A DNA stretch of 25,288 nt. Origin: a virus (lineage: Duplodnaviria; Heunggongvirae; Uroviricota; Caudoviricetes). This document shows positions 19,075 through 19,659 of the stretch, one piece after another. Location: the IMG/VR virus record IMGVR_UViG_2565956635_000009, positions 1 through 25,288 of that record, one strand, 5' to 3'. A program made the translations under genes and the position numbers. The stretch's first letter is position 1. Each line of letters begins with the position of its first letter. The notes under the pieces are model-generated. The model had not been told where the DNA came from, searched no databases, and saw only the letters and a program-made list of their open reading frames with translations.

Positions 19075-19659
19075 ATGAAAAGTATCCAGGACGTCCGCAG
19101 GCAAAATCTCAACGACTTGATCGACCGTGAATTCAATGGTGTTCAGACGCGGATGGCTGAAAAACTTGGAACTCAGGCAAATCTGGTAAACCGCTGGGCT
19201 CTTGGCAAGAAGGTTATCGGCGACCAGGTTGCGCGAAAAATTGAAGCTGCCGCCAATAAACCCCGTAACTGGCTTGATATCGATCGCTCGCTTTCTCAGG
19301 AAGGTTTTCAGCCTGTCGGACCAAGCGACATTGGTCAACTGGCGGCTCACAACCTGGAACGCTGGATGAGCGAAAGCCGCGACCTTTCAACGCAGGGAAA
19401 ACTTCACCGCGCATCCGGCGTCGCCCAGGTAACAATCAGCCGCCTGTTAAACAATGAGGTCAGCGTTTCCATTTCCACCCTGGAGAATGTTGCATCCGCA
19501 TTTGGGCGTCACGGATATGAATTACTGATTCACCCGCACGACCCCGCGACTATCAACTATGACCGCTCGCGCTACGCATTGTTACCTGAAACAGAGAAGG
19601 CAAAGATCGAAAGTTACATTGAATTTGTCATCAACCAGAACGAAAAAAACAAACAATAA
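19075..19659 (+). CDS. CI-like repressor with two helix-turn-helix domains and no autopeptidase domain (194 aa)
   Basis: Two XRE-type segments (QTRMAEKLGTQANLVNRWALGKK and LHRASGVAQVTISRLLNNEVSVSISTLENVASAFG); no Ser-Lys dyad/S24-like C-terminal domain recognisable; divergent from the Cro-like gene and followed by a strong terminator. Confidence 0.75.
   Translation: MKSIQDVRRQNLNDLIDREFNGVQTRMAEKLGTQANLVNRWALGKKVIGDQVARKIEAAANKPRNWLDIDRSLSQEGFQPVGPSDIGQLAAHNLERWMSESRDLSTQGKLHRASGVAQVTISRLLNNEVSVSISTLENVASAFGRHGYELLIHPHDPATINYDRSRYALLPETEKAKIESYIEFVINQNEKNKQ

What the first reader, a model, noticed from the sequence alone, without database searches (positions are those of the whole stretch)
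19075..19659. Immunity repressor is a tandem helix-turn-helix protein with no LexA-type autocleavage domain and no antirepressor in view
The 194-aa repressor has two XRE-type helix-turn-helix segments and no recognisable Ser-Lys dyad or cleavage-site region. RecA-stimulated autocleavage is therefore unlikely, yet I see no antirepressor gene and only one weak LexA-box-like sequence (CTGT-N8-ACAG at 10152..10167, with a GC-rich spacer). The induction mechanism is unclear. A dual-HTH protein would naturally bind two half-sites, consistent with the palindromic operator family.
Basis: partly seen in the sequence, partly recalled or inferred. Interest (0 to 1): 0.5.

Follow-up and report, generated by a model that had tools for sequence, protein, structure and literature searches.

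The report
Known antirepressor-controlled phage repressor (phiV10/SPC32H type)
The gene is the ordinary immunity repressor of a phiV10/epsilon15-like E. coli prophage; its SOS-controlled antirepressor is well known from a Salmonella relative and lies about 7 kb outside the window, so the "unclear induction" is an effect of where the window was cut.

Summary
Window 19075..19659 (+) encodes a 194-aa protein with two HTH-type segments, no S24 peptidase domain, no antirepressor gene in the window and no credible LexA box.

It is not a puzzle. The protein is 100% identical to the repressor of E. coli phages phiV10 and vB_EcoP_ZX5. It is a full-length homologue (E=4e-42) of Rep of Salmonella phage SPC32H, solved alone (PDB 5D4Z) and bound to its antirepressor Ant (5D50).

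The window matches contig JBFQDX010000009.1 without a mismatch over positions 1-24585. About 7 kb left of window position 1, that contig carries an 85-aa Ant homologue (E=3.8e-47 to 5D50 chain E). A canonical LexA box (TACTGTATAAATATACAGTT) sits directly upstream of it.

Most likely mechanism: DNA damage leads to LexA cleavage, Ant is then made, and Ant binds Rep and takes the tetramer off its operators.

In the solved homologue the middle HTH-like domain is a dimerisation domain. The operators here are perfect palindromes (TTACC-N5-GGTAA), as expected for two copies of the N-terminal domain.

Verdict: already known, low interest.

The parts
19075..19659 (+). rep: the 194-aa immunity repressor. 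It is 100% identical to phiV10 p40 and ZX5 ORF21, and 43% identical to SPC32H Rep.
19075..19290 (+). Rep residues 1-72: the N-terminal HTH DNA-binding domain. The recognition helix NLVNRW (residues 36-41, 19180..19197) is invariant in five Reps from four host genera. Net charge is +5.
   Evidence: the DBD is assigned to the N-terminus in SPC32H Rep by PMC9986798
19339..19527 (+). Rep residues 89-151: the middle XRE/HTH_3-like five-helix domain. It corresponds to the dimerisation domain (MDD) of SPC32H Rep. Net charge is 0 and it is only 33% identical to the SPC32H domain.
   Evidence: 5D4Z, TM 0.80, rmsd 2.8 A; for the MDD function
19528..19656 (+). Rep residues 152-194: the C-terminal tetramerisation and Ant-binding domain (CAD). 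The aromatic tetramer core F187/F190 of SPC32H Rep corresponds to Y181/F184 here.
18957..19019 (.). Three operators in the rep/cro-like intergenic region: TCACCTATAAGGTAA (18957), TTACCCATGAGGTGC (18988) and TTACCTGTTGGGTAA (19005). The first overlaps the promoter-like site of the cro-like gene (18974..18946, - strand).
   Evidence: the same motif is annotated as a repressor binding site in the epsilon15 record
19717..19793 (+). Leftward-operon promoter (TTGACA-17-AATTAT, 19751..19779) bracketed by two perfect operators at 19717..19731 and 19779..19793, 62 bp centre to centre.
19680..19699 (+). Intrinsic terminator directly after rep.
   Evidence: annotated in phiV10
18690..18920 (-). Divergent 76-aa cro-like gene (phiV10 p41, phrog_35 'transcriptional repressor').
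10152..10167 (.). It is not a credible LexA box: it scores 10.8 bits, the level of shuffled sequence. It lies between two terminators downstream of tRNA-Arg.
1..1 (.). Marker for the left window edge. In the identical contig the ant gene (85 aa, + strand in window orientation) lies 6,977-7,234 nt to the left of this position. Its LexA box TACTGTATAAATATACAGTT is just upstream of the ATG, and a perfect operator TTACCTTTTAGGTAA lies about 60 nt further upstream. ant is divergent from the tailspike gene.
   Evidence: L006 17869..18126 -, LexA box at 18147

Best explanation
The gene is the Rep-type immunity repressor of a phiV10-like (Uetakevirus, epsilon15-like) prophage.

Proposed mechanism, by homology with SPC32H Rep:
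- The N-terminal HTH domain binds 15-bp palindromic operators (TTACC-N5-GGTAA).
- The middle HTH-like domain dimerises the protein.
- The C-terminal domain joins two dimers into a tetramer.
- The tetramer sits on operators at the divergent rep/cro promoters, at the leftward promoter and at other promoters, and keeps the prophage silent.

Induction does not involve repressor cleavage. DNA damage activates RecA and LexA cleaves itself. That de-represses a small gene, ant (85 aa), next to the tailspike gene about 7 kb outside the window. The Ant tetramer binds the C-terminal domains of Rep, splits the Rep tetramer into dimers and releases it from DNA.

Shown here:
- Homology of Rep and of Ant to the two solved partners.
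- Presence of ant with a canonical LexA box in the identical contig.
- The operator family.
- Absence of an S24 domain.

Inferred from SPC32H and from reviews:
- Tetramerisation, Ant binding and LexA control in this E. coli lineage.
For: - Rep matches 5D50_A at E=4e-42 over residues 1-190 and 5D4Z at E=4e-20 over residues 89-190.
- The AF2 model's best folds are 5D50 and 5D4Z.
- The window is phiV10-like throughout, and Rep is 100% identical to p40.
- SPC32H ant lies divergent from the tailspike gene. phiV10 p24 is 88% identical to it.
- LexA-box scores are 25.3 (SPC32H), 25.1 (phiV10) and 27.3 (E. coli prophages), each directly upstream of ant. The window's best is 10.8.
- Window positions 1-24585 equal contig JBFQDX010000009.1 with 0 mismatches. 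Its 85-aa gene hits 5D50_E 'Anti-repressor protein' at E=3.8e-47.
- Rep and Ant co-occur in 35 of 36 phage records.
- In complete E. coli genomes rep is found in 537 of 5426 and the ant region in 529 of 5426.
- There are 7 perfect operators against 0.01 expected. The same motif is annotated as a repressor site in epsilon15.
- The tetramer-core aromatics are conserved.
- The identical Rep represses lytic genes in ZX5.
- Secondary sources describe the Rep tetramer, the Ant tetramer and LexA control.
Against: - ant is not in the window. The link rests on sequence identity to a public contig, checked for positions 1-24585 only.
- The primary SPC32H papers (Kim & Ryu 2013; Kim et al. 2016) could not be read here. 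Mechanistic details come from secondary sources and from my recollection of the abstract.
- Rep is only 43% identical to SPC32H Rep (33% in the middle domain), so the Ant-contact residues could not be checked.
- In ZX5 the authors attributed antirepressor activity to a Bro-N protein and did not test the small Ant homologue.
- The LexA weight matrix was built from sites recalled from memory.
Confidence: 0.88

Rival explanations
1. One reading: a tandem-HTH repressor in which the two HTH segments of one chain each read one half-site of the palindromic operator, with an unknown, possibly new induction route.
For: Both segments match HTH profiles, and the middle one matches more strongly (HTH_3 E=1.2e-9). 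The middle helix-3 keeps a T-x-x-R pattern across homologues. The ZX5 authors also assumed the C-terminal HTH binds DNA.
Against: - The two segments show no mutual similarity, whereas the operator half-sites are identical inverted repeats.
- The N-terminal domain is basic and has an invariant recognition helix. The middle domain is neutral and the least conserved.
- The homologous fragment 92-198 of SPC32H Rep is the tetramer scaffold, and the middle domain is described as a dimerisation domain.
- An induction route exists in the same contig.
Confidence: 0.06
2. A lambda CI/LexA-type repressor inactivated by RecA-stimulated self-cleavage, through a cryptic or divergent cleavage module.
For: None found, beyond the general prevalence of this mechanism among temperate phages.
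Against: - No S24 hit in Pfam or among 86 homologues.
- The model is all-alpha with no beta-rich domain, and no S24 structures appear among the fold matches.
- There is no Ala-Gly or Cys-Gly motif in the sequence.
- Reviews state that this group uses antirepressors rather than cleavage.
Confidence: 0.01
3. Induction depends mainly on a different antirepressor (Bro-N type as tested in ZX5, a P22-Ant-like protein, or one supplied in trans by a co-resident prophage), and the small Ant homologue is dispensable in E. coli.
For: - ZX5 Bro-N ORF4 overexpression lowered the prophage titre from 1e9 to 1e6 and cut rep transcripts by 75%.
- phiV10 and several relatives carry Bro-N downstream of ant. Another relative carries an Arc-family protein plus a P22-type antirepressor in the same slot.
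- Trans-acting antirepressors are documented in Salmonella.
Against: - The contig identical to the window has no Bro-N gene in that slot, only the small ant.
- ant with its LexA box is the one element conserved in all eight loci examined and in 35 of 36 phage records.
- It is the structurally proven partner of the homologous Rep.
Confidence: 0.05

Closest known systems
Rep/Ant switch of Salmonella phage SPC32H (PDB 5D4Z, 5D50; Kim & Ryu 2013, Kim et al. 2016)
   Same: - Full-length homology of Rep, with the same three-part layout: N-terminal HTH, middle HTH-like domain and C-terminal helix.
- The aromatic tetramer core is conserved.
- The operator motif TTACC-N5-GGTAA is the same and sits at syntenic positions.
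- The Ant homologue (86% identical) is in the same place, divergent from the tailspike gene and behind a canonical LexA box.

   Different: - Rep is only 43% identical (33% in the middle domain), although Ant is 86% identical.
- The host is E. coli rather than Salmonella.
- Nothing about Rep-Ant binding has been measured for this lineage.
Repressor p40 of E. coli O157 phage phiV10 and ORF21 of vB_EcoP_ZX5
   Same: 100% identical protein in the same genome context. The phiV10 GenBank note already records 'two helix-turn-helix motifs', and ZX5 ORF21 was shown to repress lytic genes.
   Different: The window's prophage differs only in mosaic accessory genes. ZX5 and phiV10 additionally carry a Bro-N gene downstream of ant, which the window's contig lacks.
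Gifsy/Fels-2 prophage repressors and coliphage 186 Tum: LexA-controlled antirepressors
   Same: Same logic: an uncleavable repressor is inactivated by a small protein whose gene is repressed by LexA (review PMC7380047).
   Different: No sequence relationship was tested or claimed. According to secondary sources, the SPC32H-type Ant breaks up a repressor tetramer rather than competing for the DNA-binding surface.
Lambda CI / LexA (S24 autocleaving repressors)
   Same: An N-terminal HTH repressor with a divergent rep/cro arrangement and multiple operators.
   Different: No S24 domain and no cleavage site. The SOS signal enters through LexA control of ant, not through RecA acting on the repressor.

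Membership tests
SPC32H/epsilon15-type Rep repressor | Full-length sequence homology to the solved Rep | tested here: met
   5D50_A E=4e-42 over residues 1-190; 5D4Z E=4e-20 over residues 89-190
SPC32H/epsilon15-type Rep repressor | Three-part fold: N-terminal HTH, middle HTH-like domain, C-terminal oligomerisation helix | tested here: met
   AF2 mean pLDDT 81.6 with 11 helices in three blocks. Foldseek top hits are 5D50 and 5D4Z, TM 0.80 and rmsd 2.8 A for the C-terminal two thirds.
SPC32H/epsilon15-type Rep repressor | Aromatic tetramer core (F187/F190 in SPC32H Rep) | tested here: met
   These residues align to Y181/F184, and F184 is invariant in 41 homologues
SPC32H/epsilon15-type Rep repressor | Palindromic ATTACC-N5-GGTAAT operators at the rep/cro and leftward promoters | tested here: met
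   7 perfect sites against 0.01 expected. There are three in the rep/cro spacer and two bracketing the leftward promoter. The same motif is annotated as a repressor site in epsilon15.
SPC32H/epsilon15-type Rep repressor | Cognate small Ant gene in the same phage genome | tested here: met
   Not in the window. It is present in the contig that is identical to window 1-24585, about 7 kb to the left. Match to 5D50_E is E=3.8e-47.
SPC32H/epsilon15-type Rep repressor | LexA box controlling ant | tested here: met
   TACTGTATAAATATACAGTT scores 27.3 bits and lies directly upstream of the ant ATG in the source contig. The window itself has none.
SPC32H/epsilon15-type Rep repressor | Rep tetramer bound to DNA is taken apart by the Ant tetramer; Rep is not cleaved on induction | not testable with these tools
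   Needs biochemistry. Known only for SPC32H.
LexA/CI S24 autocleaving repressors | Peptidase_S24 domain with a Ser-Lys dyad | tested here: not met
   No S24 hit, an all-alpha model, no S24 fold match, and none of 86 homologues carries the domain.
LexA/CI S24 autocleaving repressors | Ala-Gly or Cys-Gly cleavage site in a linker | tested here: not met
   No AG or CG dipeptide in the 194-aa sequence.
Tandem-HTH DNA binder (both HTH segments read DNA) | Two DNA-reading HTH domains matched to two half-sites | tested here: inconclusive
   Arguments against: no similarity between the two domains, identical palindromic half-sites, a neutral and poorly conserved middle domain, and its dimerisation role in the homologue. 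Direct DNA binding by the middle domain cannot be excluded by computation.

The most novel reading that the evidence does not exclude
Ant is far more conserved (82-86% identity between the E. coli and Salmonella phages) than the Reps it must inactivate (43%). The operator half-site and the Rep recognition helix are invariant across the E. coli, Enterobacter, Klebsiella and Salmonella phages compared. One SOS-induced Ant might therefore cross-induce every Uetakevirus prophage in a cell or community, and these phages might be largely homo-immune despite divergent repressors. A weaker variant is that the middle HTH-like domain keeps a second DNA-binding role, for example in pairing operators 62 bp apart.
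Probability: 0.25. Interest if true: 0.35.

Novelty: already known. Interest (0 to 1): 0.1.

Why it matters
It matters little as a discovery. The repressor, its architecture and its induction route are established for the family, and the identical protein is already deposited and partly characterised.

It has practical value for annotation:
- About 10% of complete E. coli genomes carry this rep. Pipelines label it 'HTH domain-containing protein' and label its partner ant 'hypothetical protein'.
- No Pfam or NCBIfam model exists for Ant.
- The one experimental paper on an E. coli member tested a neighbouring Bro-N protein instead of the Ant homologue.

It is also a caution for window-based scans. 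The regulatory partner of a phage repressor can lie more than 25 kb away along the prophage, next to the tailspike gene.

Tried and rejected
- I tried to read the primary papers (PMC4983836, DOI 10.1073/pnas.1602618113, PMC3807360, PMC2698709). None is held. As a result the Ant-contact residues of Rep could not be mapped.
- I looked for any LexA box in the window by consensus and by weight matrix. Nothing rose above the shuffled background. The second CTGT-N8-ACAG at 5610 has a GC-rich spacer and lies between capsid genes, so I rejected it.
- I looked for any antirepressor in the window by tblastn of phiV10 p23 and p24 and by PHROGs and Pfam scans of the window-specific genes. None was found.
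- I tested whether the two HTH domains are a duplication. They show no similarity.
- I checked the 272-aa accessory gene at 10259..11077 against defence-system models. Only coiled-coil noise came back.
- The exact source was not in the complete-genome E. coli collection (best hit 91% coverage). It was found through exact-protein look-ups instead.
- The last 703 nt of the window (24586-25288) were not compared with the contig.
Relatives show only tail fibre, O-acetylase and lysis genes there.

Full report

Yes. An ATG-initiated ORF of 194 codons occupies 19075..19659 on the + strand.
- Pfam reports HTH_3 (E=1.2e-9, two stretches, best at residues 106-147), HTH_26, and a Cro/YdaS-type HTH at residues 21-61. 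There is no Peptidase_S24 hit.
- PHROGs places the protein in transcription-regulator families.
- The gene is divergent from a 76-aa cro-like gene (18690..18920, -) and is followed by an intrinsic terminator (19680..19699).
- The CTGT-N8-ACAG at 10152..10167 exists.
- A LexA weight matrix, built from E. coli SOS boxes I recalled from memory, gives the 10150 site 10.8 bits. The median best score in shuffled windows is 10.6 and the weakest training site scores 13.3.
- Nothing lies within three mismatches of the 20-mer consensus. The window therefore has no credible SOS box.
- No window protein resembles an antirepressor.

**2. What is the element?**

The window is a phiV10-like (genus Uetakevirus, epsilon15-like podovirus) prophage read in reverse orientation.
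- Its genes run from an internal virion protein, through tail, head, portal and terminase, to the early-right genes and the cro-like gene. Then come rep, RecE/RecT, AlpA, PerC, a methyltransferase and the integrase.
- Most proteins are 96-100% identical to phiV10, and Rep is 100% identical to phiV10 p40.
- The phiV10 GenBank note for p40 already reads 'two helix-turn-helix motifs ... similar to putative repressor epsilon15p38'.
- The same protein is ORF21 of phage vB_EcoP_ZX5. Its overexpression eliminated free phage and reduced holin and endolysin transcripts by 99.97-99.99% (PMC9782041).
- The rep sequence occurs at 95% identity or more in 537 of 5426 complete E. coli genomes.
- Homologues occur in Citrobacter, Lelliottia, Pluralibacter, Raoultella and Serratia. 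None carries an S24 domain.

**3. The solved homologue**

Searching PDB sequences gives 5D50 chain A, 'Repressor', at E=4e-42 over residues 1-190. It also gives 5D4Z (Rep residues 92-198) at E=4e-20 over residues 89-190. These are Rep of Salmonella phage SPC32H, solved alone and in complex with its antirepressor Ant.
- An AlphaFold2 model built from 41 homologues has mean pLDDT 81.6 and is all-alpha. It forms three blocks: helices 4-59, helices 83-151 and helices 164-193.
- Foldseek returns 5D50 (E=4e-11) and 5D4Z (TM 0.80, rmsd 2.8 A). After those come only generic XRE-type HTH proteins, and no S24 fold.
- Secondary sources describe SPC32H Rep as an N-terminal DNA-binding domain, a middle dimerisation domain (MDD), and a C-terminal domain (CAD). 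The CAD tetramerises through F187/F190 and binds Ant (PMC9986798).
- Rep binds DNA as a tetramer. The domain pairs that read each palindrome come from different dimers. The tetrameric Ant binds two Rep dimers and breaks the tetramer (PMC9638917).
- A review states that in these Salmonella phages LexA self-cleavage leads to Ant synthesis, and Ant inactivates the repressor by protein-protein contact (PMC7380047).
- The primary papers could not be opened.

**4. Where is the antirepressor?**

- In SPC32H, ant (86 aa) lies divergent from the tailspike gene.
- phiV10 p24, annotated hypothetical, is 88% identical to it and occupies the same position.
- Each has one outstanding LexA box immediately upstream. 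SPC32H has CACTGTATAAACATACAGTA at 25.3 bits and phiV10 has AACTGTATAAATACACAGTA at 25.1 bits.
- That part of the genome (phiV10 coordinates about 12.7-26.9 kb) is not covered by the window.
- Exact-protein look-ups found contig JBFQDX010000009.1 (assembly GCA_040940015.1). It matches window 1-10891 and 3866-24585 with zero mismatches.
- In that contig an 85-aa gene lies 6,977-7,234 nt to the left of window position 1. It hits 5D50 chain E, 'Anti-repressor protein', at E=3.8e-47 over its full length.
- Directly upstream of its ATG is TACTGTATAAATATACAGTT (27.3 bits), the best LexA match in the 20.5-kb locus.
- All eight related loci examined have the same gene and box.
- Rep and Ant co-occur in 35 of 36 phage records.
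- The ant region is present in 529 of 5426 E. coli genomes, against 537 for rep.

The 'missing' antirepressor is therefore a consequence of where the window ends.

**5. Operators, and which HTH reads them**

- TTACC-N5-GGTAA occurs seven times perfectly in the window, against 0.01 expected. Further copies have one or two mismatches.
- Three copies lie in the rep/cro spacer (18957, 18988, 19005). The first overlaps the cro-side promoter-like site.
- Two perfect copies bracket the leftward promoter TTGACA-17-AATTAT (19717 and 19779).
- The epsilon15 GenBank record annotates ATTACC-N5-GGTAAT sites as repressor binding sites. They lie downstream of rep and in the ant/tailspike spacer.
- SPC32H and phiV10 have the motif at the same syntenic places.

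Several results argue that two copies of the N-terminal domain read each palindrome, and that the middle HTH-like domain is structural:
- The half-sites are identical inverted repeats.
- The two HTH segments of Rep share no detectable similarity.
- The N-terminal domain is basic (+5) and carries the invariant helix NLVNRW in five Reps from four host genera.
- The middle domain is neutral and the least conserved, at 33% identity against 53% for the N-terminal domain.

This agrees with the solved homologue. A residual DNA contact by the middle domain cannot be excluded by computation.

**6. Mechanism proposed**

- Shown: homology of both partners to the solved complex, ant plus a canonical LexA box in the identical contig, the operator family at the promoters, and the absence of a cleavage module.
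- Inferred: Rep tetramers occupy the operators. Operator pairs 62 bp apart (19717/19779 and 16612/16674, with the same spacing in phiV10, SPC32H and epsilon15) suggest that one tetramer bridges two sites.
- Inferred: SOS induction removes LexA from the ant promoter. Ant then binds the Rep C-terminal domain, splits the tetramer and frees the lytic promoters.
- Confidence is about 0.88.

**7. Rivals**

- Self-cleavage is essentially excluded.
- A dual-HTH reading of two half-sites is unlikely for the reasons in section 5.
- A different antirepressor is a real possibility in relatives. ZX5's Bro-N ORF4 reduced lysogeny when overexpressed. Another relative carries an Arc-family protein plus a P22-type antirepressor in the same slot.
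- The contig identical to the window has only the small ant there.

**8. Novelty**

Already known. The identical protein is deposited and partly characterised. The family's structure and switch were published in 2013 and 2016, and even the two-HTH remark is in the phiV10 record.

What remains untested is the E. coli Ant homologue itself. It is annotated 'hypothetical' everywhere, has no Pfam or NCBIfam model, and was passed over in the ZX5 study. One curiosity is that Ant (82-86% identity) is much better conserved than Rep (43%) while the operator is unchanged. That hints at cross-induction and shared immunity across the genus. Interest is low (0.1).

Noticed in passing
window 9623..9637, 10240..10254, 13142..13174, 16612..16688 (and 19717..19793): The operator motif TTACC-N5-GGTAA is not confined to the immunity region. 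Perfect copies sit upstream of the late (portal/head) operon, at the start of the small-terminase gene, and as a pair between the lambda-P-like replication gene and the DUF1064 gene. Paired sites are 62 bp apart centre to centre, and the same spacing is seen in phiV10, SPC32H and epsilon15. This suggests that one Rep tetramer bridges two sites and that Rep silences most promoters of the prophage.
   Followed up: partly
L006 17869..18200 (about 7 kb left of window position 1); alignments: Ant is 82-86% identical between the E. coli and Salmonella phages, while their Reps are only 43% identical. The operator half-site and the recognition helix NLVNRW are unchanged. This predicts cross-induction and perhaps shared immunity across the genus.
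   Followed up: partly
MW722083.1 (L021) 1078..2346; PMC9782041: The ZX5 study tested the Bro-N protein (ORF4) as the antirepressor. It left the 85-aa SPC32H-Ant homologue, two genes upstream in the same orientation, annotated as hypothetical. PGAP also calls it hypothetical in E. coli genomes, and neither Pfam nor NCBIfam has a model for it.
   Followed up: partly
L003 7375..11795; phiV10 (L002) 19551..20415; L004, L009: The slot between the last injection-protein gene and ant is a variable hot spot. Different relatives carry Bro-N proteins, an Ash-like gene, or an Arc-family repressor plus a P22-type antirepressor there. The window's own contig has only a 98-aa gene.
   Followed up: no
window 10259..11077 (+): A 272-aa accessory gene (phrog_4780, function unknown) with a hydrophobic N-terminal part, judged by eye, and coiled-coil-type matches in Pfam and PADLOC. 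It replaces phiV10 p03 next to the large-terminase gene, and two terminator-like hairpins, read by eye, lie just upstream of it. It has its own TATAAT overlapped by an operator-like site, TTACCTTAAAGGTAT. The identical 15-mer lies upstream of int in phiV10 and SPC32H. It may be a lysogenic-conversion or exclusion gene. Defence-model hits are coiled-coil noise only.
   Followed up: partly
window 9960..10036 (+) and 9966..10238 (-): A tRNA-Arg (anticodon TCT) is present, as in SPC32H. The phiV10 'hypothetical protein' p04 maps to the opposite strand of this tRNA and is probably not a real gene.
   Followed up: no
window 20264..21085 and 21055..22023 (+): The RecE-like exonuclease and RecT are two overlapping ORFs here, and also in ZX5 and SPC32H. 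The phiV10 record annotates a single 586-aa RecE-RecT fusion, so either a frameshift or an annotation difference exists in phiV10.
   Followed up: no
window 23370..24029 (+): A NinI-like Ser/Thr phosphatase (Metallophos) gene sits between the methyltransferase and the integrase. It replaces the DUF1382 gene of phiV10, which is a mosaic difference.
   Followed up: no
window 5610..5625: A second CTGT-N8-ACAG (CTGTTACGACCCACAG) lies in the spacer after the major capsid gene. Its spacer is GC-rich and it is not LexA-like.
   Followed up: yes
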